Numbered from the stretch's first letter, positions 38,428 through 63,044 are shown. The stretch is 64,000 nucleotides of DNA from Deltaproteobacteria bacterium HGW-Deltaproteobacteria-22 (GCA_002841825.1 PHAZ01000001.1:3107-67106), one strand, 5' to 3'. Notes: a model not told the origin generated them from the sequence alone. Program-made: numbers and translations.

Positions 38428-38447
38428 GCATTTCCTTAACTTGGGCG
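38428..38447. repeat. Left direct repeat (attL candidate), CATTTCCTTAACTTGGGCG
   Basis: 19-bp exact match to 63026-63044. Lies between the chromosomal gene ending at 38373 and the integrase gene end at 38478. Confidence 0.7.
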
Positions 38448-38477
38448 CAAGCCTTAATCGTTCCGGCTGATTTTTTC

Positions 38478-39638
38478 TCAGCGGATTCCATTGGCAGTAG
38501 TCTGATTCTGAAGGATGTTTACGCCGGCGCGGAGGTTGTCGGGGGATAGATGCGCGTAGCGGCCGGTCACCTCCAGGGAACTATGGCCCAACAATGTGGA
38601 GACGACGGGTAATGGTACACCAGCCTGGACCATGCACGAGGCATGCGAGTGTCGGAGCATATGTGGGGAGATGGGCCTCAACCCGGCTGATCTGCAGGAT
38701 TTCTTCAGATGGAAGCCGGCGTTGCGTGGACGTTCATAGCCTTGTTTTTTGTCCGAAATAATCACCAGGCGCCGGCTGAGGGATGCCTGTGGCAATGGCG
38801 TAATATTCTTCTCTCCGGGAAAGCGTAAGAAAAAAATATTCTTCAACGCGCTGACCGCTTCGCTGTTCAGGGGGAGCACACGGGTGCGGCCATTCTTTGG
38901 TGTCATCACTTGTGGTCCGCGATCCGTGAAATACACGGTCCGCTGAACTCGAATGGACTCGAATTTTGCCCGGAGATCGAGGTCGTTCCATTCAAGCGCA
39001 CACATCTCCCCAATTCGAAGGCCAGTATGGAAGAGGAACCGAAATACGCAGCTCCAGATGGGTGATGCATGTTTGCAAAGAGACTCCAATTCCTCCACCG
39101 TGAGGAAATCCGTCTTGATATTCACGATCTCCTTGATCGACTCCAGGGTCAAGGAAAGAGGAGGCAATCCGGATTTATCGGCGACCTTCAGGCAGGTTTT
39201 CAGAACGCGGATGTGCCGAGGCGTGGATATCTTTCTGGCGGCTTCCATGAGTTGATCGCAATGCGATTGCGAGAAATTCACCCAGGCCAGTTCGCCGATG
39301 ACCGGAAAGACATGCTTGCGCAGACTGCACTCGTGGATGTAGCGGGTGGAGGGTTTCAGATGTCCGGTGAGCTCCAGCCAGTCCAGAATTGCACGTAGAC
39401 CGCTCTCCACGGTGTGAATGGTTTTCGGCCCGCGCTTATGCCCGGGCACCACCTTCTTGATACCGTTCTGGATCATCGAGAGTTCCTTCTCTCCCCACGA
39501 GATGGCCGCCCCTCGACTATCGAAACCACGCTTCTTCAGGCGGCGCGGGATGCCTTCATGATCCTTGAAGCAGTGGTCCACACGGAACAGTACCCGGCCA
39601 CGCCTCTCGTAGGGATAAGCGACGATAATCTCAGACAT
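38478..39638 (-). CDS. int: Tyrosine-type site-specific integrase
   Basis: C-terminal catalytic domain with R...HMLRHSHAS...LGHSSLEVTGRYAHL (R-H-R-Y tetrad). N-terminal SAM-like core-binding domain. Confidence 0.9.
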   Translation of the reverse strand: MSEIIVAYPYERRGRVLFRVDHCFKDHEGIPRRLKKRGFDSRGAAISWGEKELSMIQNGIKKVVPGHKRGPKTIHTVESGLRAILDWLELTGHLKPSTRYIHECSLRKHVFPVIGELAWVNFSQSHCDQLMEAARKISTPRHIRVLKTCLKVADKSGLPPLSLTLESIKEIVNIKTDFLTVEELESLCKHASPIWSCVFRFLFHTGLRIGEMCALEWNDLDLRAKFESIRVQRTVYFTDRGPQVMTPKNGRTRVLPLNSEAVSALKNIFFLRFPGEKNITPLPQASLSRRLVIISDKKQGYERPRNAGFHLKKSCRSAGLRPISPHMLRHSHASCMVQAGVPLPVVSTLLGHSSLEVTGRYAHLSPDNLRAGVNILQNQTTANGIR

Positions 39639-39744
39639 AACTATCGGCCTTTCTGGCCTGCAGAATTTCGCGTTGCAGGCATCATAGCTCAGCCCCAAGG
39701 GGCGGTCAAGCACGCAGGCTCGGCCGCCCCTCCAAAGCGCAGGG

Positions 39745-40209
39745 TCATTGAGCTTCCGACGGTTTTGCCGAGGGAAGCGGGGCTTGCGGACGAGGCTTGT
39801 CCCGTTGGATCAGTTCGGTGATTAGAGAACTGGCTTCCTGAGTGGTGAGGGCGTCGACAGTTTTCCCGAAACGGGATTTGCAGCCCGCCTCGAATTTACT
39901 CTTGTTTCCGCCAAGCTTCTCGTCCACGAGTTCGCGCAGCTTGACGAGTTGACGTGCTGTGATCTGACCCTGGACGTTGGCTGTCGATGGTGTTGTTTGG
40001 GGACGGGTGACATTGGACGAAGGTATGGATGAGACGCGCGATGGCGCATCCTGTGCGACAGGCGATGGCGTCTCACCACTTGCAGGAGAAGAGCCTTCCT
40101 CTTCTCGGAGTATGGTCATCATCTCGGCGAACTCCTTGTTGAGTTCCTGGAGGTGTTGCTGGATACGGTTGAAGCGAGTAACGAAGTTTTCAGTTGTCAT
40201 ATCAATCAC
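39745..40209 (-). CDS. Hypothetical island protein, paralog A (coiled-coil N-terminus, conserved C-terminal domain)
   Basis: C-terminal ITARQLVKLRELVDEKLGGNKSKFEAGCKSRFGKTVDALTTQEASSLITELI aligns with the protein at 56394..56780. Confidence 0.6.
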   Translation of the reverse strand: MIDMTTENFVTRFNRIQQHLQELNKEFAEMMTILREEEGSSPASGETPSPVAQDAPSRVSSIPSSNVTRPQTTPSTANVQGQITARQLVKLRELVDEKLGGNKSKFEAGCKSRFGKTVDALTTQEASSLITELIQRDKPRPQAPLPSAKPSEAQ

Positions 40210-40276
40210 CTTCTTTCTGCGCGCCGCTGGCCGGAGGCATCATCGCCCGCCGGCCACGACACAACCAGGTTTGCGA

Positions 40277-40510
40277 CTAGGCCGCCTTGTCCTTGTTTCC
40301 AGACAGCCAATTCATGATGGTCTCGCGGTTGAAGCGGTAGCTCTTTCCGGTCCTGCGGCACGGGATCTGTTTGTGTTCGATCATGTAATAAATCGAGTTC
40401 GGCCGTACGCGCAGCAGTTGGGCCAACTGAGAGACATCCAGGACCTCGGGCAGCGCCGCGGTCGGTTCGGTGGTGGTGGCGATTTCGGGGTTCATATACA
40501 GGGTTTTCAT
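40277..40510 (-). CDS. xis: Excisionase / AlpA-like HTH DNA-binding protein
   Basis: 77 aa. LDVSQLAQLLRVRPNSIYYMIEHKQIPCRRTGKSYRFNRETIMNW matches the MerR/AlpA excisionase fold pattern. Heads the xis-X-int operon. Confidence 0.7.
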   Translation of the reverse strand: MKTLYMNPEIATTTEPTAALPEVLDVSQLAQLLRVRPNSIYYMIEHKQIPCRRTGKSYRFNRETIMNWLSGNKDKAA

Positions 40511-40637: not shown

Positions 40638-43600
40638 TCAGGGCACCTCCTCCGGGTCGACCATGGAGACGAACGTGCCATCAAAACTGATGACACCCTG
40701 TGCGACGAGGTCGTCGATCATCGGCTTCGCCATCGGCCGCAAATGCTCTGGGAGCATCTCCCGGACGCGGTTCAGGTGCAGGGCACCTTCGCTGAGTGAA
40801 TGGGACGTGACAGCGAGCCGGAAGTGCTCCAGTTCGTCGACGTTGGCGGTGACCGAGACAATTTCCTCGGGGAGATCCAAGTGGCCAGAAAAACCCACGC
40901 TGGTGCCGGCACCACTTCCTGTCTCTTGATAAATATTTTCTTGTTCTCCGCCTTCTTCTTCTTTTTCTTCTCCCCGAAAAGGGTACCCCTCAATCCGTGG
41001 GTTTTTTTGGCCACTTACGACTTGGCCCACACCAAGGTCGACATCGGCGAGCCCCGGTTTCGGCGTGAACGTGGGCTTCTGTTTCGGCAGCAGCTTAATG
41101 CCGGTTACGCCACGCGTTCGGTAATGATCCTCCTGACGGCGGCAGACCTCACCGCCCCAGGTCACCTCCACTGCCGCGAAAAACCGGTCATGGCTGAAGG
41201 TGTCCCGATGGTCGTAGTCAGGCCACCACTTGTTGTAGGCAACGTCGATGTCGTCCCAAGAGATGTAGTGGCTCTCGGACTGCTGGAACCTCTCCCACAA
41301 AAAACGGGCCTCGACGGTCGTCAAGGCCTCGGCGAGGTAGACCGCCTCCTCCACGGGCTGCGTGTACTGCCACGTCCCCGTTTCCAGGTAGCGCCGGGCA
41401 AAATGGACCCCGTAGGAGAAGATGATATCCATCTCGGCCTCGTCCTGGGTCCAGGCGAGCTCCGCATCCATCTGGTTCTCGGCCGTGTACCGGATGCGGT
41501 GCGACCACACGTGGACGTTGCGACGGTCTGCACCTCCACGAGTGCGGTCCTTCCCGATGCTGGGATGGTTGCTGAGGATGACGATCAGGCTTGTGTTCAG
41601 GAAGCTCGTGGCATCCTGGTACACGGGCGCCCCAGTCAAGGTCTCAGCCGTCGTGGCCTCCTTGATGAAAGGACCGAGAATGTCGAACACGTTGTGCGGC
41701 GCGTCGTCGAAGACGGCGAGCAACTTGCCTCTCAGGGTCGAGATACCCCGCAACCGCCGTTCACCAGTGAAATCGGCGATCTGCGCATGCAGGATGTTCG
41801 AGTCACCCACGAGGATCGCGACGTACTTCATGAAGGTAGACTTTCCTTCACCGCCAGGTCCCCAAAAAATAATGCAGATGCCGGTCTGCCGCGTGAGCAG
41901 CAAGCGGGCGATCATTTCGATGAGGGCGACGATGTTCACGCCCCACCGCTCCCAGGCCTGGATGGTTTTCAAGGATTCCAGCGGCGGCAACTGTGTCGGG
42001 TCCTCGATGAATGTGCGCGGCACGTAGAACACTGCAGGCTGCTTCGGCCGCCCGGGAGTGAACCACCGATCAAGCTCGAAGGAGATGAAGCCGTTCTTGC
42101 AGAGAATGCCCTTCTGGAGCACTTCGCCGCCTCGGAATTCGAGTACGGCGGTCGCGAGGTACCAGGCCACGAGCGTGAACTCACTTGGCTCCAGCGGACG
42201 CCCCGCGACCGTGTTGAACAGATCGTGGAGTTCCTCTGGCCGAACCGGGCTGAGATGCCCTTCGGTGTTGACTCGATGGAACGTGGGCGTCATCGACGGG
42301 CGGCTCGGCGGCTCGATGCACACTAAACTGTCCCCGGTGCTTCTTGCCACGCCTCGGGCGATGACGACATACTCGTCCTCTTGTGGTTCTCCTTCGGATT
42401 CTAATTTTTCCAGCTGCTGCCTCTCGGTTTCAATGATCAACTTTCCGAGATCTGTGAGGGTGCACTTGAAGTGCTTTGCACCTGCCTTGAGGACTTTTTT
42501 GATCATCACTGGGTTGGCTCGCACCAACTCGTACGCGAAAGACTGCAGGACCTTGGGAAGCTGGTCTGACGGGGTATCAGTTGGGATGGCCAAGAGTTGA
42601 TCGATGAGTTCCTTCTCCGTCGGCGAAGGCGCTGCGCTGGCTTTACTTGCCATCGGTGCCGGCAGAGAGGTCGTTGGGATCGACGTGAAAGTGTAGGTCA
42701 AGCCACCATGAGCGAAGCTCCAGATGTACGGTGGCTTGCCCGGTTTGACGATGAACTGTGCGAGCCGTTCACCGCCGTGGTAGTCAGGTTCCAGCGGATC
42801 GGAGAAGGTCTTCCCGTTCCACTTTTCCTGGTCCCCGAGGAGCTCACCGACCGTGACCTCGCCGGCCTGCCCGTGCAGCACGAATTCGTCTGGCAGCACG
42901 TGGGTGGCAGCAGCCACGCCCAGGCGGTCACGCATGTGCTGCGCTTCTTCCGGCGACTGAGGGCGTCCCGCACGTTGGCCGTCCTTCTGGATGCGATCCT
43001 CGATCCACGCAGCACGGACAGCGTCGGCCTCGTCCTGGGCGTCTGCCTTGAGCGCGGCGACGATCTCTTTGAGACGCTCATCTTCTTCCGGCGTGAGCGC
43101 GGTGAGCGCGGTGACAGTATCCAGCACGCTACCGTCTTTCACCGTGGGTGCCGGCCTTAACTGGACGAGGCCCTTGCCGCAGGCCGCACCGGCTGCAAAG
43201 TCGAGCCGCTCCGGCTGCCACACGGATCCATCGATGGACGTGCGCAGCAGCATCGTTCCAGCCTTGGTGACCTGGATGTACCCGTGCCCCGCAAGGACGA
43301 GCCGGTCAAACAGCAACTGCCCTGCGCGTGGGATGTCCTGGCCGTTTTTCGCAACGAGGTAGACCCGCTTGCCGCCTTCGCCCTTGAGAACTTCGCCGGT
43401 CTTCTCATTGACGATGAAGGTGCTCGCGCTGTCGGTGACAACCAGGGCGCAGTCCGCGATCTCTGGGCACACCGACACCAGGAGTCCTACCAGCTCCTCG
43501 CGTGTCAGTGGCATGGTGCCCGGCCGGATGTCGAAGTCGATCATCATGATCGCGAGTCCGGCGAGAAAACGGAAGTTCTCTCGGATGCGGGCGAGGTCGC

Positions 43601-43853
43601 CTGGACCGACGTTTTCACGGGTCGTGACGTGTGCCTCGTCCACGTTGGGGACGCCGTAGCCGCACGCCTGGTTGATCAACAGTTGGATCAGGAGCTCGAT
43701 GAAGCCGTGGGGGAAGTCCGCTTCGACGCGCTTGACCTCGCCGTTCCAAAGGTTGCCCCCAGGCAGGATGACAAGCTGGTCGTTCTCCAGCGTGATGGAT
43801 TTGGTGAGCCGGGGTGGCTCGTGGGACGTGAAGACCGAAATGGGCACCCTCAT
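40638..43853 (-). CDS. Phage/plasmid primase-helicase (P4-family C-terminal NTPase domain)
   Basis: 1071 aa. Walker A IIFWGPGGEGKSTFMKYVAIL and Walker B LAVFDDAP in a D5/P4-primase-type helicase domain. Large N-terminal domain. Acidic C-terminal tail. Confidence 0.65.
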   Translation of the reverse strand: MRVPISVFTSHEPPRLTKSITLENDQLVILPGGNLWNGEVKRVEADFPHGFIELLIQLLINQACGYGVPNVDEAHVTTRENVGPGDLARIRENFRFLAGLAIMMIDFDIRPGTMPLTREELVGLLVSVCPEIADCALVVTDSASTFIVNEKTGEVLKGEGGKRVYLVAKNGQDIPRAGQLLFDRLVLAGHGYIQVTKAGTMLLRTSIDGSVWQPERLDFAAGAACGKGLVQLRPAPTVKDGSVLDTVTALTALTPEEDERLKEIVAALKADAQDEADAVRAAWIEDRIQKDGQRAGRPQSPEEAQHMRDRLGVAAATHVLPDEFVLHGQAGEVTVGELLGDQEKWNGKTFSDPLEPDYHGGERLAQFIVKPGKPPYIWSFAHGGLTYTFTSIPTTSLPAPMASKASAAPSPTEKELIDQLLAIPTDTPSDQLPKVLQSFAYELVRANPVMIKKVLKAGAKHFKCTLTDLGKLIIETERQQLEKLESEGEPQEDEYVVIARGVARSTGDSLVCIEPPSRPSMTPTFHRVNTEGHLSPVRPEELHDLFNTVAGRPLEPSEFTLVAWYLATAVLEFRGGEVLQKGILCKNGFISFELDRWFTPGRPKQPAVFYVPRTFIEDPTQLPPLESLKTIQAWERWGVNIVALIEMIARLLLTRQTGICIIFWGPGGEGKSTFMKYVAILVGDSNILHAQIADFTGERRLRGISTLRGKLLAVFDDAPHNVFDILGPFIKEATTAETLTGAPVYQDATSFLNTSLIVILSNHPSIGKDRTRGGADRRNVHVWSHRIRYTAENQMDAELAWTQDEAEMDIIFSYGVHFARRYLETGTWQYTQPVEEAVYLAEALTTVEARFLWERFQQSESHYISWDDIDVAYNKWWPDYDHRDTFSHDRFFAAVEVTWGGEVCRRQEDHYRTRGVTGIKLLPKQKPTFTPKPGLADVDLGVGQVVSGQKNPRIEGYPFRGEEKEEEGGEQENIYQETGSGAGTSVGFSGHLDLPEEIVSVTANVDELEHFRLAVTSHSLSEGALHLNRVREMLPEHLRPMAKPMIDDLVAQGVISFDGTFVSMVDPEEVP

Positions 43854-44805: not shown

Positions 44806-47775
44806 TCAGGTGCGGGCGAGCAGATCTTCGACGGTGCTGGCGACCACGTAGCGGGCTGCGGAACCTTCATGCGCTTCCAGGGCGTGGAAGTGCGCACGAC
44901 CGCAGGCGATTTTTCCCTGTTCCTGCTGACGCAAATCTTCCACGAACAGGCTGCCCTTGGTCTCCACCACGAAGTAGAGCCGCTGCTGGTTCTCGGTTTC
45001 CACGAGCACCGCCCAGTCGGGATTGTACCCACCCAGCGGCGTGGGGATGGAGAACCACCCCGGAAGTTTCGCGTACACCCGGACGGCAGTGTTGCTTTCA
45101 AGCCCACGGGCAAAATCCGCCTCCACCTGCGAGTCGTACACGATCTCCTCCGTGGCCGACTTCTTCGTGACGAGAAGATTACGCAGGTAGCCGCTGAGCT
45201 CCTCCTGCTCGAACAATTCCTGGGCGTAGTAGCTCGCATCACCGATGCGTTGATACCGAATACCATCGACAATGGCGGAACGCTTGCACCGAGCGATGAC
45301 CTCCACCGCGAGTTCGATGAACTTCTGGGGATTGCGCTTGAAATCTCCCAGCCGGCTGCAGCGCTGCAGGATGCGGCAGAGGGTGCGGCGCGTGAGCTGG
45401 GTGCGGTTCTGCATCTCCGTAAGGATGTCCGGCAGCTCCAGACCGCCCTCCTCCAGATGGACGGTGGTATCGGCATTCAGATGGGTGGGCGTCACGCCGG
45501 CCCTTCCAATGGTTAAATCCGCCTTGCGCCACTGCATATTTACGCGCGCAATGGCAGGTGCGTTCTCGATGGCCAGCGCGCACGCCTCGATCAACTGTTC
45601 GTTGTCGAAGTCCAGGCGGTAGGTGGTCTTGAATTTGATACGATCCCACAACTCCTTGAATTCCTGGCTCTGCAGCACGGCCTGGCGAGGCTGGACGCGC
45701 CTTCGTTCGTCGGCGTTTTTCACGTCCAGGCGTCCGGCCAGTTTTTTTAACATGGCAGTAATAGGCTCCCGGGAGGCGAGGAAGCGCTCCGGCAGCTGCA
45801 ATCTTCCGGAAGCCAGCACCTGTCTGAGCTTGTCCGTCACGCGTCCCTGCGCGTCGATGAAGCCCTCCGCCAACAGGAACTCCCACAACTGGCCTGATGG
45901 CTCCCGCCCCAGTGCGGTGGTCACACCATCGCTTCCGGTCACGGGAAGGGCGGCGAACTGGTCCTTTTCCACCACGCCGAAGCGGATGCCGGTGTCCTGT
46001 TCGATTTCCTTCTGAAGGTTCTCGGCGAAGCGTTCGTAGCTCTCCCGTGCCACCACGGTCAGCGTGTTGATCTCGAATCCACGCACACGCTGGCCTTCCT
46101 GGTTCACGCAAAGGCGCAGTCCGCGGCCGATGGTCTGCCGACGCTCCCGCTCCGAACGCATGTCACGCAGCGCGCAAATCTGGAACACGTTGGGACTGTC
46201 CCAGCCTTCCCGCAGCGCGGAATGGGAGAAGATGAACTTCAGCGGCGTGTTCAAATCGAGCAGCCGCTCCTTGTCCTTCATGATGAGGTTGTAGGCGCGC
46301 TCTGCGTTCTCCCTGTTGGTCTGGTTGCTCTCGGTGGTGTCCGACCACCCACCCTTGCGGTCGATGGAAAAATACCCGTCGTGAACATCCCGGGCGACAT
46401 GGGTCTGATCCACCTCACCAAAGAGCGAGGCGAAGTCAGGATGCCGGGCTGCACGCAGGTATTCCTCCTCGAAGATCGTGGCGTACACACCGGCAACCGC
46501 CTGCCCCTGTTCGTCGTATTGGCGATACCGAGATACCTGGTCGATGAAGAACAGGGACAGCACTTTAATGCCCTGTGGCCGGAGCCGTTTCTCCTTCTCC
46601 AGGTGCTCCCGGATGGTCCGTCGGATCATCTGCCGGTGAACGGCCAGATCGTCCACATCTCCTTCGACCTCGCCGGGACGAAGGAAGACATCTTTTCCCG
46701 GACAGTTCAGTTCCATGAACTCTTTGCCTTTAGCCGCGCGCAGCTCCCCTACGCGGTAGTTTGCGTACAGGGCACGCCCCGTGGTCTGCTCCAGATCATC
46801 TCCGGCCTGCAGCGTCACTTCCATGCGCTGCACGCTGCTCTTCTTCTGCACGTCGAGTTCCACGCGAGCCCGGATTTCACCCTTGCGCGCATCCACACGA
46901 ACCAATCGCACGTAGGGCTTGTTGTATGCGTCCTCCACGGTCGCGGCCGCCACCTCGATTTGTTTGACGAGCTTGCGTTCGTAGGCGTCGACGGCGTCGA
47001 GTCGATATACCATCGCATGCTTGTCTGCATGGGTGGCCGAATACCGCAGCGTGCACATCGGGGACATGGCTCCCAGCGCCTCCTTGCCGCGTCCCTCCAG
47101 TCCACCGTCCACGCTCTGCGGCTCATCCACGATCAACACCGGTCGCGTGGCGCGGATCAGGTCGATGGGCTTTTCCCCGCCCGTCTTCTCACTCTCCTTG
47201 TACAGGTTGTTGACGTCCTTCTTGTTGATGGCGCCCACCGTCACGACCATGATCTGGATATGCGGACTCGTGGCGAAGTTCCGGACCTGTCCGAGCTTGG
47301 ACGAATCGTACAGAAAGTACTCGTAATGCACGCCGGCGTAGAGTCCCTTGAAGTGCTCCTCCGTGATCTGCAGCGACTTGTACACGCCTTCCTTGATGGC
47401 GATCGACGGCACCACGATGACGAACTTGGTGAACCCGAAGCGCAGATTCAACTCGAAGATCGTGCGCAGATAGACGTAGGTCTTGCCCGTGCCCGTCTCC
47501 ATCTCCACCGTGAAATCTCCGGCACCCAGATCCACCGAAGGAGCCAGTCCGTTGTGGAGCTGGACCTCGTGCAGGTTCTTCATCAGTTCGTCATCGAGCA
47601 GCGTCAGCCGGTTCCCAATGCCCAGGCCGCTCTCGAACACGTTCTCCATCCGTCCCACGGCGGCCCGCGTGACGGTGAACTCGGTGCGACAGACTTCCTG
47701 GCCCCGGAAGAGCCCGCATACCGCGTCGACAGCCTGCAGTTGGTAGTCCAGTTGGGGCTCGAAGTGCAGCTTCAT
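44806..47775 (-). CDS. res: Type III restriction enzyme, Res subunit (SF2 helicase + endonuclease)
   Basis: N-terminal MKLHFEPQLDYQLQAVDAV typical of Res. Motif I EMETGTGKTY. Motif II LIVDEPQS. Helicase C-terminal motifs. About 990 aa. Confidence 0.85.
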   Translation of the reverse strand: MKLHFEPQLDYQLQAVDAVCGLFRGQEVCRTEFTVTRAAVGRMENVFESGLGIGNRLTLLDDELMKNLHEVQLHNGLAPSVDLGAGDFTVEMETGTGKTYVYLRTIFELNLRFGFTKFVIVVPSIAIKEGVYKSLQITEEHFKGLYAGVHYEYFLYDSSKLGQVRNFATSPHIQIMVVTVGAINKKDVNNLYKESEKTGGEKPIDLIRATRPVLIVDEPQSVDGGLEGRGKEALGAMSPMCTLRYSATHADKHAMVYRLDAVDAYERKLVKQIEVAAATVEDAYNKPYVRLVRVDARKGEIRARVELDVQKKSSVQRMEVTLQAGDDLEQTTGRALYANYRVGELRAAKGKEFMELNCPGKDVFLRPGEVEGDVDDLAVHRQMIRRTIREHLEKEKRLRPQGIKVLSLFFIDQVSRYRQYDEQGQAVAGVYATIFEEEYLRAARHPDFASLFGEVDQTHVARDVHDGYFSIDRKGGWSDTTESNQTNRENAERAYNLIMKDKERLLDLNTPLKFIFSHSALREGWDSPNVFQICALRDMRSERERRQTIGRGLRLCVNQEGQRVRGFEINTLTVVARESYERFAENLQKEIEQDTGIRFGVVEKDQFAALPVTGSDGVTTALGREPSGQLWEFLLAEGFIDAQGRVTDKLRQVLASGRLQLPERFLASREPITAMLKKLAGRLDVKNADERRRVQPRQAVLQSQEFKELWDRIKFKTTYRLDFDNEQLIEACALAIENAPAIARVNMQWRKADLTIGRAGVTPTHLNADTTVHLEEGGLELPDILTEMQNRTQLTRRTLCRILQRCSRLGDFKRNPQKFIELAVEVIARCKRSAIVDGIRYQRIGDASYYAQELFEQEELSGYLRNLLVTKKSATEEIVYDSQVEADFARGLESNTAVRVYAKLPGWFSIPTPLGGYNPDWAVLVETENQQRLYFVVETKGSLFVEDLRQQEQGKIACGRAHFHALEAHEGSAARYVVASTVEDLLART

Positions 47776-54995: not shown

Positions 54996-55006
54996 GGAGG
55001 TTGAAA

Positions 55007-55463: not shown

Positions 55464-55533
55464 CATCCGTGAAATAGCATGATGCCTTTTTGTGAGGCCG
55501 CAACTGACCCTGGATTTGAATTTCATGACGCCT

Positions 55534-55559
55534 AAAAAAGTCTGGGTTTCCCCAGACTT
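55534..55559 (-). terminator. Rho-independent terminator for the minus-strand operon ending with the Cas4-like gene
   Basis: Minus-strand hairpin AAGTCTGGG-GAAA-CCCAGACTT followed by TTTTTT. Lies 30 nt downstream of the stop at 55589. Confidence 0.65.
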
Positions 55560-55588
55560 GAAGATCAAATATTCATTGTGTGGTGGGT

Positions 55589-56422
55589 TCAGTCCTGACT
55601 GGCGCACATGCTCCTGTAGCTGCAGCCGCCGCATCTCCAACTCCTGTGTTTAGGCAGGACGAGCTGGGGATGGTCGTGGGACAGGGCAAGGGAGATGATT
55701 GTGGAGGCGGATGCGGCCAGGGTCAGGGCGCCTCGCTCCTCTTTGGCGGGGTCATGGCGGGCGATGGTCTGGAGGGTGACTGCAGGAATTTTGGATTTTT
55801 GGAGGAACTGATACTGCAGGGAGACATCATCGACGTCGAAGATAGTCTTGGCCGCGAGTGAATACAAAGACATCTGAGTGTCCGGTGCGGCGACCTTGTC
55901 GTTGTCGATGCGCGCAGCCGTCTTGTGGTCGGTCACGACGATCTGTCCGTTGCGTTCTTCGACGAGATCGAAGGTACCGAGCAGGCACTCCGGGAGTTGC
56001 TCGCCCGAGAACGGGTTCACTAGCGGGAGAACAAACTTGAATTCAACGGCAAGGATGTGGGCAGGACGGTAGCCGGTGGCCAGGAAGGCCGTCAGCATCG
56101 CGCTGGCCTGCGACTTTAGCGAATCGATGGACTCGCCCTTCTTGAACGAGATGGGTGCTCTCTGCGGGGCATCGATGGCCGCCGAGGCCACGTCGACGAG
56201 TTCGGTGAGCGTCGGCTCCGTGCCGGACTGCTTCACGGAATTGTAGAAATAAGCGAGCGATTCGTGCACCGCGGACCCTAGGATGAGCGCGGCGCCGGTG
56301 TCTTGGGGCGGTTGCCCTTGGATGTAGTGGTAGAGGAATTCGCGGGGGCACTCAATGAGGGTGGAGATCGAGGAGGCCGAGAGGTGAAGTGCTTCATCTT
56401 GCGGAACGGGATTTGTAACCAT
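55589..56422 (-). CDS. PD-(D/E)xK nuclease-superfamily protein, Cas4/RecB-like, with C-terminal Cys cluster
   Basis: Motifs around QIVVTDHKTA (D..E.K core). Three C-terminal Cys (CGGCSYRSMC) plus an N-terminal Cys (IEC), the Cas4/AddB-type Fe-S arrangement. No cas1/cas2 or CRISPR nearby. Confidence 0.6.
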   Translation of the reverse strand: MVTNPVPQDEALHLSASSISTLIECPREFLYHYIQGQPPQDTGAALILGSAVHESLAYFYNSVKQSGTEPTLTELVDVASAAIDAPQRAPISFKKGESIDSLKSQASAMLTAFLATGYRPAHILAVEFKFVLPLVNPFSGEQLPECLLGTFDLVEERNGQIVVTDHKTAARIDNDKVAAPDTQMSLYSLAAKTIFDVDDVSLQYQFLQKSKIPAVTLQTIARHDPAKEERGALTLAASASTIISLALSHDHPQLVLPKHRSWRCGGCSYRSMCASQD

Positions 56423-56943: not shown

Positions 56944-57930
56944 TCAGGCCGCTGCGAGTTGCATGGCCAGTTGCAGTGCGGTTTCTTTGACCTGCATGCC
57001 CTGTCCGAACCAGGCAGAATACATTCGGCTATCAGGGTTGTTGAGATTGCGTGAGTGGTCAACGAACTCCGAAACTGCATTCAGTGCGCGCCAGAAATTC
57101 GTCGCTGTGATATCGGTGCCGCGGCCGTTCTCGAAGAGTGCGGTAATTCGATCGCGGATTGAGCGAGCGCTGTTGCGCTTGGCGGTTTCGGCGGGATCGG
57201 GGAAGAGGCGGGTGAGGTACTCGCTCAACTGGAAGGTGTTGATGCTGCGCTGGGCCAGGTAACGGTACAGGTCGGCACTCTGCTCAAACTGGGCATTCAC
57301 GCCGGCCAGGTATTCAGCGACGTTCTGGATCCTGGCGACTGCACCGGCCGTGTGTCGGATGCTGATTCGCTTGTGCTTATCGGCGCGGGCTGTGGCCATG
57401 GCGAGGGTGTTCGAGCAGACCACGCGGATCGGCGTGAACATGATGCGGACGGGGCTGCTTCCGTCATGGGAATTTGAGAGCAGCAGATACTTGTCGACAA
57501 CGTCGTCTCCGGCAATGCGAAGGTTTCCATTGAGACGTGCGAGAACAAATACGGTTCGGCCGCCGCGAAGACTGCCGGCCGTGTGATACTCCACCATTCC
57601 CGTTTCGACGATCCGATTGAAAAACTCGAATGCAGCCTCATTCTGTACAGGGCGATATTGGTCGCCCACGACGCCGAGAGTTTGATAGGTGGGGGTGGTG
57701 TCGGCCTGCGTGATCTTGCGAACGACGGCGAAATGCCTCGGCACGCTCAGTGCATGCCACGTGTTGTTGTCCTGCACGATCGCTTCCAACGGCGTCTTGA
57801 AAACACTCCATCCGAGTCCTGCGGAAACAATCGCAGCAGCAGCGGTGGGCGGTGCGTCGGCAAGCAAAACGCCAAGGCCATGCCAGGCTGGCTTCTGAAC
57901 GAAGAATCCATTTTCAAACTGATGGCTCAT
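56944..57930 (-). CDS. DUF932-family protein (phage/plasmid-associated)
   Basis: 328 aa. Overall similarity to DUF932/TIGR03299-type proteins common on integrative elements (MSHQFENGFF...GVV.DQY.PVQN...SLRGGRTVF...). Assignment from memory. Confidence 0.5.
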   Translation of the reverse strand: MSHQFENGFFVQKPAWHGLGVLLADAPPTAAAAIVSAGLGWSVFKTPLEAIVQDNNTWHALSVPRHFAVVRKITQADTTPTYQTLGVVGDQYRPVQNEAAFEFFNRIVETGMVEYHTAGSLRGGRTVFVLARLNGNLRIAGDDVVDKYLLLSNSHDGSSPVRIMFTPIRVVCSNTLAMATARADKHKRISIRHTAGAVARIQNVAEYLAGVNAQFEQSADLYRYLAQRSINTFQLSEYLTRLFPDPAETAKRNSARSIRDRITALFENGRGTDITATNFWRALNAVSEFVDHSRNLNNPDSRMYSAWFGQGMQVKETALQLAMQLAAA

Positions 57931-58518: not shown

Positions 58519-58770
58519 TTAGCGGCAGAGCTGCTCGAGTCCGGCGCGATCCTCGGGCGCCCCCGTGTGGAAGGCGTGAAGGGAGAAACCATCGACCTTG
58601 GATTCCTCTGCGTCTTCGTCGCGGTCCTCGGCAATGTGCTTGAGCTTGAGGCAGGCGCAATCGACACTGCTGTCACCGTCGTAGTCGAGGGCGTCGGCGC
58701 AGACGCGGCCGTCCCACCCAGTGTCGTGCCACGGGACGCGGATGGAGATGTGTTTCAACGGGTAGTTCAT
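58519..58770 (-). CDS. Small ORF translationally coupled (ATGA) to the RT-nitrilase gene; unrecognised N-terminal motif IRVPWHDTGWDGRVC; possibly frameshifted
   Basis: ATG overlaps the RT stop codon. 83-aa ORF. A second frame continues coding-like sequence to about 58311. Confidence 0.35.
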   Translation of the reverse strand: MNYPLKHISIRVPWHDTGWDGRVCADALDYDGDSSVDCACLKLKHIAEDRDEDAEESKVDGFSLHAFHTGAPEDRAGLEQLCR

Positions 58771-61700
58771 CCCAAACCTGCCGGAGGCGACTTCCAAGGC
58801 GACTCCGGCGCGAGTGCTTTGATCCTGCGCGCTATGACATGGTCGATGTTATTGATTTCGAAGAAGGCTACCGAAGCTTGCGGTTGTCCATGAAGGTGGA
58901 ACATCTGCCGTTGGTACTCCTTTCCCCAGGGATGGTACGCATTGCTGCCACCATACTCGCCGTTGTTTGCGATAACGACATACTGAAACATGTGGTAATG
59001 CAGCGCCAATGCCATTTGATCGAACGTGCCCACGTCCCTGTTCAGCGCTGGGATCGCGAATACATCAGAATGGTGACGAAGGTCTGCGGCCAACGCCAGA
59101 TCTGTCGCGTCGTAGCAGACGGCCGCGGTAAGCCACAGTGGCGGATCTGCTAACATGCTCGACCAGTCGTAGCCCACCAACCACTGACAAGGGCGCCAAC
59201 CTTGCACGACAACTTTCGGATTGTTCAACTTTGTCTCACCTGCGGCGAGGTGATGCTTTCCTTGCCGTCGAATGAGAGTCTGCAACCCGTGAGCTGCCGA
59301 CCAGGTCGGCATTATCCAAATGGCGGAATTGACCAGCGGCTGACCAGCGAACAATTCTTGGTAAGTCAGTCCCGCCAAGATGATGGCCCTGTGCTTGCGA
59401 GCAAACGGAATGAGGTGTGTCTTCACATCAAGTGGATGCACGGCAAGTTCCGGCAGAATTAGCCAATCGAGGCGACCATCGAGACCCATGTGCGTCTCAC
59501 GCAGATCGAGCATTCGCTCGATCGCTGCCAGAGCGGCAGACAAATGATTACGGTGCGTCTTGCGAATGCCCCGTTCGGACAAACTAAGATCGTCAACCGC
59601 TGCAGCGGTGATGATGTCGCTGGAGGTCGGCGTAACGGTCTGCACCACACAAGCCCGTAGTGGTCGCGTCTTCTTCTTCCCGTCAGGCCGCGAGGTATTG
59701 AACGGCAGAAGAAGAACACCGCTTGAACCACCTTGCATCCTATCGAGTTTCGATTGGCGCTCTTCAATAAGGGCGAGCAAGGCGAGAACGCCGCCTTCGG
59801 TCTGTCGGTCCATCTCTGAAATTTGACACCCTGGCCATCGAAGCAACGAGAAAAGCAACTGCTCAATCCAGTCCGAGATCGGCAGCCAGTCATCGCCAAA
59901 CGCCGAGTGCCCGTTGAAGAGACCGTAGAGCCTTTGATACCAATGGCTCTCCGCTGCTCGGTACGTTGTTGCGGTCTCCTTCCAACTGGGCGGGCGCACA
60001 ATCTTTGTGAAGTCTTGGCGCGCTGTCAGAATGAATCGAAGTAGATATCCAAGCTGAAATCGCCAACGCTTGTCAGCAGGGCACCATCGGGGCGGGCGGT
60101 ACATGGACCCGGCAGGTGTGACTCGGCTTGACGCGACGGAGACCGTGTCTTTTTCGGATAGTCCTTTCGCGGAATCCTGAACCCTAATGCGGACGTCTTC
60201 TGGGGTGATGACGTCATCCATTGCTGCCTCGGGCAATGCCTTCAGAAACTTTGAGGCGAAGCGAAGCACGGCGAGCTCGTTCCGTAGCGAACCGTTGGGC
60301 GTACCTTGAAGGACTATTTCGGCGAGCGACATCCCTGACTCGGCTCCAGCACGCAGCCGCAGGCAAAGATCATCACGCAAGCGCGGGGTGACGCTGGCAG
60401 CAAGGTCGGGCCGCGATTCAAGTATCTCCAATGCAAAGGACGGATCTCGCTCGCCGATCTGCTCGAGCCGGCTGGATGTGACACCATCGCGCACCAGCTC
60501 AATCGCTGTTTCTCGTCCGCAAAACGATCGACGCGCCAAGACGGCCAGCGTAGAAAAGTCCCCTCCCTTAATACGGTCGCCCTCGTTTCTGAGGAAGCGG
60601 ATCAACTCGCGGTAATGTTTCGTCTCCGGGTTGGTTCCTCCCCGTTGGACTGGTGCGTCCTTGGGGTCGTTTGCCGCGAGATACAAGAATGCCTGCTGCC
60701 TGAGATACCAAGGCAGCGCCGCTGGGGGTAACTCAGCAAGGCGCACCGCCTCCTGCCGCAGGAGCTTTCGATAGGCATCGATGTCGATACCTTTTGGCAT
60801 AGGCTCGCCTGTTTCAACGAAACCGGTCTCCGTGGCGCCAGCCCGCAACACTTCCGAGAGGCAGTACCACGCCACCCGTCGCGGTGCCCCTCGATGTCCT
60901 CCCTTAACGGTGAACGGTCGTAACAGGTCGAGCACACTTTGAAGAACAACCTCCGCCGGCCAAAGGTCCAACCCGATGCGAAGCAGGCGCACATTCGAGG
61001 GGTCTTCGACCCAACTTTCGATGAGGCCGAGGGCAAACGATCTGGCTTCATCATCAAGCTCGCTCTGAGTGCGAGCTACACCGGCGCGACTTGCTGCGTC
61101 CTCGTTCGCGTACACCTCGACTGACGTGTCCGGCTCTACGCGGTCCGCTAGGAGCGGTCTCAGGGAACGATAGGTGCTTCTGAACCGCGCTGCGGCGAAA
61201 CGCTCAACTGTGGCGTCGAGTACATCTGTGACGGGTGCGAATGCCCAACTTTGTCCGTCGATTCGCTGTGCCGAATAGCGCTGTTGGGACTGAATCAGCC
61301 CTTGGACAGCATTAAGGATGTCTTCGCCGCCAATTGCATCGAAGCCGCCGGAGATTGCGCCCTGAATGCGCGCCATCTTCCGGCTCTGCCGCACCAAAGG
61401 TCGCTCATCCCCTCCGAAGTTCGCGGCCCTGGTCTTCTCGGCAGAGACCTGCAAACCATGGGCTTGCTCATCAAGCAACTCCTGAAGCCATTTCGTTGAA
61501 AGCTGCTCGATGTCAGGGAGTGTCTTCTTTTCCGTGACCCCCAAGACAATGCGGAGATCATCGACGTACCGGCAAACATCCTTGACGACGACTCCAGGCT
61601 CGATCTCCTGAGACACGGTTTCCCGCAATCCTTGGTCAAAATCGAGCAACACGACGTTTGCAAAGAAACCGGATGCGACCAATCCTTGGGGAAGCGCGAC

Positions 61701-62537
61701 TCGTGAGAAATCGTCAATCCCCGCCTGCCTCGTGTAGTCTGCGATCTCTCGATCGTCCTTGCTGGCCCACTCCCAGTTCAACAAGCGATTCGCGAGTATG
61801 TAGAAGTTCGGATCATCGTTCGGTCGCGCCAGTGCGCTGAGCTTCCTAGCGAGTAGATCGGGCCGCACGCGGTCATAGAACTGGCGTAGGTCCGAGTGGA
61901 CGATGATGATTCGATTGCCTGCATCCCTTGAGACTTCCTCGGCGACAGTCTCGGGTCGCGCCAGAAAGCTTCGATAGTCTTGGTAGTGGGCGCGATAGAG
62001 TTTTCCTGAACCCCAGCGGTGAAGAAGCGAGCCACCAGCGTTGTCGCAAAACAAACGGTTGCCGTAGGAGATAACTTGATTGCGTACCACCGTATCTGTG
62101 ATTTGACCGCGAGGGTCACCCTGTAGCGTCTCGACCCTATCAGCGATGCACATCATCACGGCGGTGGCTGCCACTTGGTCGCTGAGGCTTGCGTGCGCCA
62201 ATGGACGCAGCGTGGTGCCCGGGCGTTTCGTATCCTGCGGGGTCCTTCGAACTGGGACTGGTTCCCAGCGCTTGGAGATCGAATTCACCTGCCAATGCTG
62301 ACTCTTGGGCGCCGGTACTATTCGCAGCGGATCGCTACACCACCTCTCAGGCGCCGCGAGACGTTCGGCCAGCTCGCCCAAAAAACGAGGGAGGTTAATC
62401 GCAGTCCGATCCAGTTCCAGCGTGTCAGAAAACCAATTGTGATACCGGATGTAAGAAGCCGTCTTCTTCCATGCTTGGACGAGGACAACCTCTTCGCGGA
62501 GTAGCTCAAGGTGCGGTCCAAGAACGTCGTTTGTCAT
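58767..62537 (-). CDS. Reverse transcriptase-nitrilase fusion protein (defence-associated RT, DRT type 1 / UG1-like)
   Basis: RT motif A IIIVHSDLRQFYDRV. Motif B-prime VALPQGLVASGFFANVVL. Motif C YVDD. Long helical middle region. C-terminal carbon-nitrogen hydrolase domain (LILPEL ... AAVCYDATD candidate E/C of the catalytic triad). 1256 aa. Confidence 0.75.
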   Translation of the reverse strand: MTNDVLGPHLELLREEVVLVQAWKKTASYIRYHNWFSDTLELDRTAINLPRFLGELAERLAAPERWCSDPLRIVPAPKSQHWQVNSISKRWEPVPVRRTPQDTKRPGTTLRPLAHASLSDQVAATAVMMCIADRVETLQGDPRGQITDTVVRNQVISYGNRLFCDNAGGSLLHRWGSGKLYRAHYQDYRSFLARPETVAEEVSRDAGNRIIIVHSDLRQFYDRVRPDLLARKLSALARPNDDPNFYILANRLLNWEWASKDDREIADYTRQAGIDDFSRVALPQGLVASGFFANVVLLDFDQGLRETVSQEIEPGVVVKDVCRYVDDLRIVLGVTEKKTLPDIEQLSTKWLQELLDEQAHGLQVSAEKTRAANFGGDERPLVRQSRKMARIQGAISGGFDAIGGEDILNAVQGLIQSQQRYSAQRIDGQSWAFAPVTDVLDATVERFAAARFRSTYRSLRPLLADRVEPDTSVEVYANEDAASRAGVARTQSELDDEARSFALGLIESWVEDPSNVRLLRIGLDLWPAEVVLQSVLDLLRPFTVKGGHRGAPRRVAWYCLSEVLRAGATETGFVETGEPMPKGIDIDAYRKLLRQEAVRLAELPPAALPWYLRQQAFLYLAANDPKDAPVQRGGTNPETKHYRELIRFLRNEGDRIKGGDFSTLAVLARRSFCGRETAIELVRDGVTSSRLEQIGERDPSFALEILESRPDLAASVTPRLRDDLCLRLRAGAESGMSLAEIVLQGTPNGSLRNELAVLRFASKFLKALPEAAMDDVITPEDVRIRVQDSAKGLSEKDTVSVASSRVTPAGSMYRPPRWCPADKRWRFQLGYLLRFILTARQDFTKIVRPPSWKETATTYRAAESHWYQRLYGLFNGHSAFGDDWLPISDWIEQLLFSLLRWPGCQISEMDRQTEGGVLALLALIEERQSKLDRMQGGSSGVLLLPFNTSRPDGKKKTRPLRACVVQTVTPTSSDIITAAAVDDLSLSERGIRKTHRNHLSAALAAIERMLDLRETHMGLDGRLDWLILPELAVHPLDVKTHLIPFARKHRAIILAGLTYQELFAGQPLVNSAIWIMPTWSAAHGLQTLIRRQGKHHLAAGETKLNNPKVVVQGWRPCQWLVGYDWSSMLADPPLWLTAAVCYDATDLALAADLRHHSDVFAIPALNRDVGTFDQMALALHYHMFQYVVIANNGEYGGSNAYHPWGKEYQRQMFHLHGQPQASVAFFEINNIDHVIARRIKALAPESPWKSPPAGLG

Positions 62538-62604
62538 GAGGACAGGCTACCGCTGCGGTTGGGGGACAACTGGCTGGGTGCCATGGAACCGACCGCCTGT
62601 GGCT

Positions 62605-62790
62605 TCATGACTCGCGACCCATTACCTCAACGAACTCCGCGACCACCTGCAGCTCCCCCTCATTCACGCCGGTGAGAATGATCGGCTTGAAGTTGGGGTT
62701 CACCGGCTTCAGCGTGTTCTTCTCGTCCTTCGAGAGCGTGCGCCCCTTGCGGTCCTTGAGCCACTTCTCGCAGAGAGCATAAGCACTCAT
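62605..62790 (-). CDS. Small hypothetical ORF near the right end of the element
   Basis: 61-aa ORF only, no motif recognised. Could be a gene remnant. Confidence 0.2.
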   Translation of the reverse strand: MSAYALCEKWLKDRKGRTLSKDEKNTLKPVNPNFKPIILTGVNEGELQVVAEFVEVMGRES

Positions 62791-63025
62791 AGACGTTTTG
62801 GCCTCCCACGGGTACTATCCCCGAGGGTGCAGCGGAAGTCAAGGTTGAGCATTTTGGGTAAAAAAGGGGTTTACGAGGAGATTTGGCGCCATCGCTTTAC
62901 GTGTTGTTCGCCCATGATTTTCCGCCTCCTCCGCAACTGACCCGCGCGCACCTCCCCGACCGCCGGGGAGCGAAACGTTCACCTGTGACCCGACCCACCT
63001 TCACGTTCCACCCACGTCAGGAAAC

Positions 63026-63044
63026 ATTTCCTTAACTTGGGCGA
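63026..63044. repeat. Right direct repeat (attR candidate), CATTTCCTTAACTTGGGCG
   Basis: Exact copy of 38429-38447. Followed by a second AACTTGGGC half-repeat. Confidence 0.7.

What the first reader, a model, noticed from the sequence alone, without database searches (positions are those of the whole stretch)
38428..63044. 24.6 kb integrase-bearing island bounded by a 19-bp exact direct repeat, with no tRNA at either end
CATTTCCTTAACTTGGGCG occurs exactly twice in the window, at 38429-38447 and 63026-63044. It brackets the tyrosine integrase at the extreme left plus an xis-like gene, a P4-type primase/helicase, DUF932 and a dense set of defence genes. Everything to the left is housekeeping or envelope genes. 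A beta-propeller chromosomal gene resumes right after the repeat. The repeats sit in an intergenic region rather than at a tRNA 3-prime end, which is unusual for this class of integrase. The geometry (int reading toward attL, xis-X-int operon) is that of an excisable element. Carrying three different defence modules on one element makes it a mobile defence island.
Basis: partly seen in the sequence, partly recalled or inferred. Interest (0 to 1): 0.75.

Follow-up and report, generated by a model that had tools for sequence, protein, structure and literature searches.

The report
Defence island inserted at a gene's stop codon

Summary
The 19-mer CATTTCCTTAACTTGGGCG is real and exact. It occurs only twice in the window, at 38429-38447 and 63025-63043 (the finding's second coordinate is 1 nt off). 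It is not the island boundary. A second, outer direct repeat, TACCGCGGCCAGTAGA (38359-38374 and 63184-63199), covers the last four codons and the TAG stop of an MXAN_5187-family gene. A sister MAG about 96% identical carries the uninterrupted site, with one 16-mer, no 19-mer, and left and right flanks joined. The insertion is therefore 24,825 bp and targets a protein gene's 3' end, not an intergenic site. Both 19-mers are element DNA, 54 bp and 140 bp from the core, spanning about 248 bp of reconstructed attP. A second element has a 63%-identical integrase, a different target gene and its own empty site, yet carries the identical 19-mer at the same offset. Its integrase N-terminal ~85 residues are 93-97% identical, against roughly 35-80% elsewhere. 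The 19-mers are therefore most likely lambda-style arm-type integrase sites. This is inferred; the fold test was inconclusive. The cargo is Drt1a plus a five-gene Snf2/DUF4391/type III R-M operon. This is a new member of a known kind and of modest interest.

The parts
36505..38373 (+). Target gene: MXAN_5187-family protein (622 aa). Its last codons, TAC CGC GGC CAG TAG, are the att core.
   Evidence: NCBIfam MXAN_5187 C-terminal domain, 31.7 bits against a cut-off of 30. The translation ends ...APYRGQ*. The same C-terminus is present in the empty site L003.
38359..38374 (+). attL core: the 16-bp identity segment TACCGCGGCCAGTAGA.
   Evidence: Exact duplicate of 63184-63199. There is a single copy at the junction of the empty site L003.
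38386..38414 (+). Conserved P'-arm block 2 (GAATCCGTTGAAAAACCTCAGTTTTTCTC), containing the inverted repeat GAAAAAC/GTTTTTC.
   Evidence: 29 of 30 positions identical to the second element, L008, even though the integrases are only 63% identical. No terminator consensus was found.
38421..38451 (+). Conserved P'-arm block 1. It contains the left 19-mer (38429-38447), the proposed arm-type Int site(s).
   Evidence: 31 of 31 positions identical in L008 at the same offset from the int stop and from the core. It is absent from the empty site.
38478..39638 (-). Tyrosine integrase, 386 aa (ATG start; the 411-aa GTG ORF is an over-extension).
   Evidence: Pfam Phage_integrase 2e-28; phrog_1 7e-53. P0001 is identical. 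R208, K248, H326, R329, H352 and Y361 are invariant in alignment A3. The AF2 model shows a beta3-alpha N-domain, a linker, a core-binding domain and a catalytic domain. Foldseek hits include Tn1549 Int, XerA and full-length lambda Int.
39745..40200 (-). 151-aa ORF of unknown function between HTH_17 and int.
   Evidence: No family hits. No homologue at the same position in the second element.
40277..40510 (-). HTH_17 (AlpA/Xis-like) protein, 77 aa; candidate recombination directionality factor or regulator.
   Evidence: Pfam HTH_17 1.4e-11; phrog_66 'excisionase and transcriptional regulator'. 66% identical to the counterpart in the second element.
40638..43853 (-). Primase-helicase, 1071 aa: an N-terminal AEP-type primase plus a C-terminal P4/D5-type helicase.
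   Evidence: DUF5906; TIGR01613 primase_Cterm, P4 family; phrog_16593 and phrog_1156 DNA primase. Only 31-35% identical to phage and plasmid proteins.
43850..44584 (-). 244-aa ORF of unknown function.
   Evidence: Called as a gene on contigs L002 and L012. No family hits.
44806..54125 (-). Five tightly packed genes: Snf2 helicase (50904-54125), DUF4391 (50137-50907), type III Mod (48194-50113), 139-aa gene (47772-48191) and type III Res (44806-47775).
   Evidence: PADLOC REase_III E=0, MTase_III 2e-216, 'C3a139 HKD+Snf2' 3e-113 and PDC-M59A 5e-35. Pfam DUF4391 1e-57. The coordinates show 4-nt overlaps or 2-23-nt gaps.
54126..55588 (.). Low-GC (about 0.48) segment with small + strand lipoprotein-like ORFs and a perfect 23-bp tandem duplication (55417-55462).
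55589..56422 (-). PD-(D/E)XK (Cas4/RecB-like) nuclease.
   Evidence: Pfam PDDEXK_1 1e-27; phrog_1218 exonuclease.
56944..57930 (-). DUF932 protein.
   Evidence: Pfam DUF932 4e-58; phrog_1221 2e-72.
58767..62537 (-). Drt1a (UG1 reverse transcriptase-nitrilase), 1256 aa.
   Evidence: PADLOC Drt1a E=0, 1272.7 bits, covering the full length; RTasNitrilase 1e-60. Pfam RVT_1.
63025..63072 (+). P-arm repeat cluster: the right 19-mer (63025-63043) plus extra half-copies AACTTGGGC (63045-63053) and TTTCCTTA (63065-63072). An inverted ATTTCCTT lies at 63128-63135.
   Evidence: All window occurrences of both half-site motifs fall in the two arms.
63184..63199 (+). attR core: the second copy of TACCGCGGCCAGTAGA. 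Host DNA resumes here.
   Evidence: Homology to L003 resumes at 63184.
63295..64000 (+). Right flanking chromosomal gene (beta-propeller lipoprotein), which runs off the window.
   Evidence: Translation. 91% identical to the gene next to the empty site in L003.

Best explanation
The feature is a 24,825-bp integrative genomic island of an uncultured Myxococcota bacterium. It was inserted by its own lambda-type tyrosine integrase into a 16-bp core, TACCGCGGCCAGTAGA, that overlaps the last four codons and the stop codon of an MXAN_5187-family gene. Because the element carries the same 16 bp, the host protein is left unchanged. The two 19-mers are not target duplications. They are element sequences that sit on either side of the core in the excised attP, about 158 bp on the P side and about 72 bp on the P' side, centre to centre. 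They are most likely arm-type binding sites for the integrase's N-terminal domain, which would help assemble the recombination complex, with the HTH_17 protein as a probable directionality factor. After excision the primase-helicase could replicate the circle. The cargo is Drt1a plus a type III R-M operon extended by Snf2 and DUF4391. Shown here: the insertion limits, the core, that the 19-mers are internal, and that they are conserved in a second element with a different target. Inferred: binding of the 19-mers by the Int N-domain, current excision activity, and replication.
For: (1) Empty site. L003, a GTDB MAG about 96% identical in nucleotides, aligns to window 26500-38376 and then directly to 63184-63711. 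The junction has one 16-mer and no 19-mer. The right-flank gene is conserved there at 91%. (2) The 16-mer is exact at both ends and covers the stop codon. (3) Independent replicate. An element with a 63%-identical integrase (L006-L009) has the exact 19-mer about 31 bp after the int stop and 58 bp from its own junction, against 30 bp and 57 bp here. Its empty site, L018, shows a different core, TTACTGCAGGGAGT, overlapping the stop codon of a different gene that encodes a 505-aa protein. (4) Co-conservation. Int residues 1 to about 85 are 93-97% identical, against roughly 35-80% in 30-codon windows across the rest. The arm blocks match at 60 of 61 positions while the neighbouring int 3' end is about 0.6-0.68 identical in nucleotides. 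HTH_17 is only 66% identical and the intervening ORF is unrelated. (5) Architecture. AF2 gives a beta3-alpha N-domain (7-57), a disordered linker, a helical core-binding domain and a catalytic domain. Full-length lambda Int structures align over 367-378 columns. The span of the reconstructed attP is 248 bp with a 16-bp core, against about 240 bp and 15 bp for lambda (PMC4111918). (6) Extra half-copies of the 19-mer occur only in the arms. (7) The 19-mer is not a dispersed motif. The metagenome scan found only the second element plus two contigs that share no other similarity with the window, and the viral scan found none.
Confidence: 0.72

Rival explanations
1. The 19-mers are the att core sites (target duplications) of a 24.6-kb element that integrated into an intergenic site.
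For: They are the longest exact dispersed direct repeat in the window, and they bracket the integrase and the cargo.
Against: The empty site L003 contains no 19-mer. It also lacks the 54 bp to the left and the 140 bp to the right of the 19-mers, and it joins the flanks at the 16-mer. The identical 19-mer occurs inside a second element that sits at a different chromosomal site, and that site's empty form (L018) also lacks it.
Confidence: 0.02
2. The 19-mers are functional element sites bound by a factor other than the Int N-domain. Candidates are the HTH_17 Xis/AlpA-like protein, the primase-helicase (as iterons of an origin next to attP), or a host bending protein.
For: The 19-mer is long for a single arm-type site. 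Strong conservation shows constraint but does not identify the binder. The fold evidence for an arm-binding domain is inconclusive. The second element's primase is unknown because its contig is truncated.
Against: Of the proteins that can be compared, only the Int N-domain is nearly identical between the two elements (93-97%). HTH_17 is 66% identical and the adjacent ORF is unrelated. Direct copies in both arms flanking the core are typical of Int arm-type sites; from memory, directionality-factor sites in lambda lie in one arm only. No promoter or terminator consensus was found.
Confidence: 0.2
3. Nested elements. An inner element bounded by the 19-mers inserted into the remnant of an older, outer element bounded by the 16-mers.
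For: There are two concentric pairs of direct repeats.
Against: The 'outer element' would be only 54 + 140 bp with no genes. The only integrase lies inside the 19-mers, yet the unit that is missing from empty sites is the whole 24,825 bp. The same 57-58-bp 'outer' piece accompanies the 19-mer at a second, different target whose core matches that target. This would need the same nesting to have happened twice, or the composite to move as one unit, which amounts to the main explanation.
Confidence: 0.03
4. The island is a fixed relic that can no longer excise. The repeats are leftovers of one ancient event.
For: All four retrieved contigs of this strain carry it integrated at the same site. No circular junction was seen.
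Against: The int ORF is intact with all six catalytic residues. Both the 16-mers and the 19-mers are perfect. The site is polymorphic between genomes about 96% identical. Assemblies of the sister element's target break within 0-15 bp of the att core in three data sets, as a mixed occupied/empty population would produce.
Confidence: 0.15

Closest known systems
Bacteriophage lambda Int/attP system (heterobivalent tyrosine integrases with arm-type sites)
   Same: The recombinase is a tyrosine recombinase with an extra N-terminal beta3-alpha domain ahead of the core-binding and catalytic domains. The reconstructed attP spans about 248 bp around a 16-bp identity core, against about 240 bp and 15 bp in lambda (PMC4111918). 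Repeated motifs lie in both arms, int sits next to the P' arm and reads towards it, and a small HTH gene lies upstream.
   Different: Sequence identity to lambda Int is about 15%. The proposed arm site is a 19-bp exact unit, or two adjoining half-sites, rather than 10-bp sites. The target is a protein gene's stop codon rather than the intergenic gal-bio site. No phage structural genes are present. Binding of the N-domain to the 19-mer has not been shown.
Integrative genetic elements that target the extreme 3' end of protein-coding genes (TIGER/Islander class; from memory, phage 21 and e14 at icd are examples)
   Same: The element carries the terminal codons of the target gene in its attP, so integration preserves the protein. 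It is strain-variable and has a precise empty site (PMC7192596).
   Different: The restored segment is very short, at four codons plus the stop. The target genes, an MXAN_5187-family gene and a gene for a 505-aa hypothetical protein, are not among those I know to be described.
P4-like satellites and other int-alpA-primase islands that carry defence hotspots
   Same: It has an integrase, an AlpA/HTH_17-type gene, a P4-family (TIGR01613/DUF5906) primase-helicase and defence cargo.
   Different: No psu, sid, delta, cos, capsid, terminase or other packaging genes were detected with PHROGs or Pfam. The primase N-domain is AEP-type and only 31-35% identical to any phage or plasmid protein. The host is a myxobacterium. 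A helper phage is purely hypothetical.
DRT1 (UG1 RT-nitrilase) and type III restriction-modification systems
   Same: The cargo proteins match the PADLOC Drt1a, REase_III and MTase_III profiles over their full lengths. DRT1 has been characterised experimentally (PMC13275509).
   Different: The type III genes sit in a five-gene cluster with an Snf2 helicase, DUF4391 and a 139-aa protein (a PDC-M59A match). I found no functional study of this combination; only two papers in the library mention DUF4391 at all.

Membership tests
Site-specific integrative genomic island (tyrosine-integrase IGE) | A precise insertion relative to an uninterrupted site in a related genome. | tested here: met
   L003 joins window 38376 to 63184 with a single 16-mer.
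Site-specific integrative genomic island (tyrosine-integrase IGE) | Direct repeats (attL and attR cores) at both ends that are identical to attB. | tested here: met
   TACCGCGGCCAGTAGA is at 38359-38374 and 63184-63199, and once in L003.
Site-specific integrative genomic island (tyrosine-integrase IGE) | An intact integrase with the R-K-H-R-H-Y catalytic residues, encoded next to one end. | tested here: met
   Pfam Phage_integrase. R208, K248, H326, R329, H352 and Y361 are invariant. The int stop lies 104 bp from the core.
Site-specific integrative genomic island (tyrosine-integrase IGE) | Demonstrated excision, seen as an attP circle and a repaired attB in the same population. | not testable with these tools
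   Raw reads cannot be mapped here. The only indirect hint is that contigs break at the sister element's att core.
Lambda-type (arm-binding, heterobivalent) integrase system | An N-terminal arm-type DNA-binding domain (three-stranded sheet plus helix) ahead of the core-binding domain. | tested here: inconclusive
Lambda-type (arm-binding, heterobivalent) integrase system | Repeated arm-type sites in both the P and P' arms of attP, distinct in sequence from the core. | tested here: met
   At the sequence level, identical 19-mers lie 140 bp (P) and 54 bp (P') from the core, with extra half-copies confined to the arms. The P' copy is conserved in a second element. Protein binding was not tested.
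Lambda-type (arm-binding, heterobivalent) integrase system | Inverted core-type sites flanking a short overlap region. | tested here: inconclusive
   The dyads are weak: CTAC-N8-GTAG (5 of 9) and TTACT-N6-AGTAA (6 of 9). The two cores share 11 of 16 positions.
Lambda-type (arm-binding, heterobivalent) integrase system | A recombination directionality factor. | tested here: inconclusive
   An HTH_17 / phrog_66 'excisionase and transcriptional regulator' gene is present upstream of int. Its function was not tested.
tRNA/tmRNA-targeting island | An att core within a t(m)RNA gene. | tested here: not met
   ARAGORN finds no such genes in the window and Rfam finds nothing. The core is in a CDS.
P4-like phage satellite | An integrase, an AlpA-type gene and a P4-family primase-helicase. 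| tested here: met
P4-like phage satellite | Capsid-hijacking genes (psu, delta, sid) and a cos site. | tested here: not met
   None of the island's tested ORFs has a PHROG or Pfam hit to such functions. A cos site cannot be recognised without a helper.
Prophage or ICE/IME | Virion structural and terminase genes, or a relaxase, T4SS or coupling protein. | tested here: not met
   Pfam, PHROGs, NCBIfam and PADLOC gave no such hits on the island proteins. IMG/VR holds no close relative.
DRT type 1 defence system | A single large protein with an RT domain and a C-terminal nitrilase domain that matches the Drt1a profile over its full length. | tested here: met
   PADLOC Drt1a covers residues 4-1255 of 1256, 1272.7 bits; RTasNitrilase covers 747-1255.

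The most novel reading that the evidence does not exclude
The island belongs to a small family in which the arm module and the core module evolve or are exchanged separately. The arm module is the Int N-domain together with its 19-mer arm sites. The core module is the Int core-binding and catalytic domains together with the att core. Two sister strains carry sibling elements with an essentially identical arm module. Their core modules have diverged, and each is aimed at the stop codon of a different protein gene, in opposite orientation relative to the element. Occupancy appears reciprocal: the MAG with site 1 empty carries element 2, while site 2 is empty in a contig from the same sample as the window's strain. 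This could mean that shared arm sites make the two elements incompatible, or let them cross-talk, within one cell. If so, this would be a natural example of integrase retargeting by module swapping.
Probability: 0.3. Interest if true: 0.5.

Novelty: new member of a known kind. Interest (0 to 1): 0.3.

Why it matters
The main value is a correction. The longest direct repeat around an island need not be its att site. Here the true junction is a shorter repeat hidden in a gene's last codons, and the conspicuous repeat is internal attP architecture. Automated island callers and manual readers that rely on the longest flanking direct repeat would set the boundaries wrong by 70 bp and 156 bp. They would also call the target intergenic and miss that a host gene's 3' end is involved. 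A secondary point is the pair of sibling elements with the same arm module but different cores. This gives a clean natural contrast for asking which integrase domains set target choice, a question relevant to work on reprogramming integrases. The cargo (Drt1a and type III R-M) is known. The Snf2 + DUF4391 extension of a type III operon is a candidate accessory module that I could not find studied.

Full report
OBSERVATION. The 19-mer CATTTCCTTAACTTGGGCG is present exactly twice in the window, at 38429-38447 and 63025-63043, even when two mismatches are allowed. None of 100 dinucleotide-preserving shuffles gave a match. The finding's second coordinate is one base off. Between the copies lie, almost all on the minus strand:
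- a tyrosine integrase
- an HTH_17 (AlpA/Xis-like) gene
- a 1071-aa primase-helicase (DUF5906, TIGR01613 P4-family; phrog DNA primase)
- type III Res and Mod
- DUF4391 and an Snf2 helicase
- a PD-(D/E)XK nuclease
- DUF932
- a 1256-aa reverse transcriptase
ARAGORN finds no tRNA or tmRNA in the whole window, and Rfam finds nothing at gathering thresholds. GC falls from about 0.65 to about 0.56 at 38 kb. So the raw observation holds.

A SECOND, OUTER REPEAT. A search for shared words between the two boundary regions turned up a 16-mer, TACCGCGGCCAGTAGA, at 38359-38374 and 63184-63199. The left copy is the end of the + strand gene 36505-38373 (TAC CGC GGC CAG TAG...YRGQ*). That gene encodes an MXAN_5187-family protein. 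The 16-mers lie outside the 19-mers, 54 bp to the left of the left copy and 140 bp to the right of the right copy. This raised two models. In the other, the 16-mer is the core and the 19-mers are internal.

THE EMPTY SITE DECIDES. Contigs encoding the identical flanking protein all carry the island (L001, L002). A scan of species-representative genomes with that protein gave L003, a Myxococcota MAG (GCA_018817795.1, contig JAHITJ010000251.1). L003 1-11872 aligns to window 26500-38376 at 96.2% identity, and L003 11855-12383 aligns to window 63184-63711 at 95.1%. The two alignments overlap on a single copy of the 16-mer, and L003 has no 19-mer at all. The three-way alignment shows the L003 site to be the left half of attL joined to the right half of attR. 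The beta-propeller lipoprotein gene that starts at 63295 follows directly in L003 at 91% amino-acid identity. The inserted DNA is therefore 24,825 bp (38375-63199, or equivalently 38359-63183). The target is the extreme 3' end of a protein-coding gene, and the host protein's C-terminus is unchanged by the insertion. The two more distant genomes, L004 and L005, have a different gene end and different neighbours, so they add nothing.

WHAT THE 19-MERS ARE. Both copies are element DNA. In the reconstructed circular attP they flank the core in direct orientation. From the start of the P copy to the end of the P' copy is 159 + 89 = 248 bp, around a 16-bp identity segment. The lambda attP is described as about 240 bp around a 15-bp identical core, with Int arm-binding sites in both arms (PMC4111918). 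The arms also hold extra partial copies: AACTTGGGC at 63045, TTTCCTTA at 63065 and an inverted ATTTCCTT at 63128. Every occurrence of these two half-motifs in the 64-kb window lies in the arms.

INDEPENDENT REPLICATE AND CO-VARIATION. The integrase (386 aa from its ATG, 38478-39638) has only seven relatives at E below 1e-30.
- The closest relative, P0002 (63% identity), lies on contigs L006-L009. One of these, L008, belongs to the same MAG as the empty-site contig L003.
- That element carries the exact 19-mer about 31 bp after its int stop, against 30 bp here. It sits inside two blocks that match the window at 31 of 31 and 29 of 30 positions. Similarity collapses where the window's core begins.
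- This second element has its own empty site, L018. It was found through the neighbouring histidine-kinase orthologue and comes from the same ENA sample as a 100%-identical copy of the window.
- In L018, identity with the occupied locus ends after ...TTCTTACTGCAGGGAGT. This overlaps the stop codon (CTG CAG TAA) of a minus-strand gene encoding a 505-aa protein. The 19-mer starts 58 bp inside the element, against 57 bp in the window.
- The two cores share 11 of 16 positions (TACCGCGGCCAGTAGA and TACTGCAGGGAGTAAA).
- Along the integrase, residues 1 to about 85 are 93-97% identical (nucleotide identity about 0.9). The rest is roughly 35-80% identical in 30-codon windows (nucleotide identity 0.5-0.68).
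- As controls, the HTH_17 proteins are only 66% identical and the ORFs between HTH_17 and int are unrelated.
So the only protein segment that tracks the invariant 19-mer is the integrase N-terminus. In lambda-type integrases that is the domain that binds arm-type sites. The diverged remainder goes with a different core and target.

RIVALS.
- The 19-mer-as-core model is contradicted by two empty sites.
- A nested-element model needs a gene-less 194-bp outer element and the same nesting at two different targets.
- A different binder, such as HTH_17, the primase or a host factor, cannot be excluded. It is less consistent with the co-conservation pattern and with copies in both arms. No promoter or terminator consensus lies in the conserved blocks.
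- The 19-mer is not a dispersed motif. The metagenome scan returned only the second element and two contigs that share no other similarity with the window, and the viral scan returned none.

IS IT STILL MOBILE? The signs point that way. The int ORF is intact with all six catalytic residues and the repeats are perfect. The site is polymorphic between genomes about 96% identical. Three assemblies break within 0-15 bp of the sister element's att core. No attP junction was observed, and read mapping is not possible with these tools.

WHAT KIND OF ELEMENT. No capsid, terminase, packaging, relaxase or T4SS genes were detected, and IMG/VR holds no close relative. The int / HTH_17 / P4-family primase-helicase module recalls P4-like satellites, but psu, sid and delta are absent. 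The primase's AEP-type N-domain is only 31-35% identical to any phage or plasmid protein. It is best described as an integrative, possibly replicative, genomic island whose route of transfer is unknown. In the TIGER survey about half of mapped elements also lack phage or ICE marker genes (PMC7192596). In the same survey only 37.3% of attBs lie in t(m)RNA genes, and CDS targets are usually preserved through an attP-borne fragment or by using the extreme tail. So the lack of a tRNA is not unusual.

CARGO. The reverse transcriptase matches the PADLOC Drt1a profile over its full length (1272.7 bits) and has a nitrilase C-terminal region. DRT1 has been characterised experimentally (PMC13275509). 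Res and Mod match type III profiles over their full lengths. Snf2 (50904-54125), DUF4391 (50137-50907), Mod (48194-50113), a 139-aa gene (47772-48191; PDC-M59A match) and Res (44806-47775) overlap by 4 nt or are separated by 2-23 nt. They look like one operon rather than two modules. Only two papers in the library mention DUF4391 at all.

VERDICT. The island is real and well delimited, but its borders and target were misread. It is a new member of a known kind: a lambda-style integrase island at a CDS 3' end, carrying a defence cargo. The most interesting residue is the pair of sibling elements that share an arm module (N-domain plus 19-mer) but have different core modules and targets. Interest 0.3.

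Noticed in passing
window 13724-16171 (dnaN 14008-15126, recF 15134-16171): The DnaN and RecF genes both pass the NCBIfam equivalog cut-offs, yet their GC is about 0.42-0.44 in a genome of about 0.60. They sit at the minimum of cumulative GC skew (about 11-16 kb), next to an AT-rich 284-bp intergenic region (13724-14007). This may be the chromosomal origin region, or a horizontally acquired dnaN-recF pair. No dnaA gene lies next to dnaN: the ORF immediately upstream is a 1239-aa TPR protein on the opposite strand.
   Followed up: partly
L006-L009 (element 2) and L018 (its empty site); L019-L021: A sibling element has a 63%-identical integrase and targets the stop codon of a different gene, encoding a 505-aa protein next to an FHA-domain gene. 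Occupancy looks reciprocal: the MAG with site 1 empty carries element 2, while site 2 is empty in a contig from the same sample as the window's strain. Three assemblies break within 0-15 bp of that att core.
   Followed up: partly
window 44806-54125: Snf2 helicase, DUF4391, type III Mod, a 139-aa protein (PADLOC PDC-M59A match, weak HTH hint) and type III Res form one tightly packed, apparently translationally coupled five-gene cluster. It may be a type III R-M variant with accessory helicase components rather than two separate systems.
   Followed up: partly
window 54126-55588: A low-GC (about 0.48) segment in the middle of the island holds small + strand ORFs with lipoprotein-like or secreted-looking N-termini and a perfect 23-bp tandem duplication (CCTATTCCGGAGCATCGTGGACA twice, 55417-55462). 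Its function is unknown. It could be a separately acquired cargo patch, a regulatory region or an origin.
   Followed up: no
L010 11183-11360: A more distant relative (integrase P0004, 42% identical, different N-terminus) has different short repeats just after its int stop: CGTGAAGGT twice direct and once inverted, plus the palindrome CGTGAACGTTCACG. That fits arm or core sites co-varying with the integrase, but the element's ends were not mapped. Its neighbourhood holds other defence-like genes (HsdR, a deaminase, DUF1828/1829, RloB/AAA_21).
   Followed up: partly
window 12951-13080, 37331-37412, 5371-5480 and 25305-25361: There are in-frame tandem repeats inside chromosomal genes. A 42-bp unit occurs about three times in the 1239-aa TPR protein gene. 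A 15-bp KKDDA-type unit occurs about five times in the island's target gene. Units of 21 bp occur at about 5.4 kb and 25.3 kb.
   Followed up: no
window 62538-63024: A 487-bp non-coding stretch lies between the Drt1a start codon and the P-arm 19-mer. There is no Rfam hit and it folds no better than shuffles (z = +1.85), so there is no sign of a structured ncRNA. It presumably holds the Drt1a promoter and the outer part of the P arm.
   Followed up: yes
window 38359-38376 versus L003 11855-11872: The attB of the sister strain matches the element side for two more bases (TAGAAC) than the window's attR does (TAGACC). The host DNA just right of the core differs between the strains (AACCCCCATCCC against ACCCCCCTCCC). 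This is probably strain polymorphism, but the exact crossover interval within the core is undetermined.
   Followed up: no
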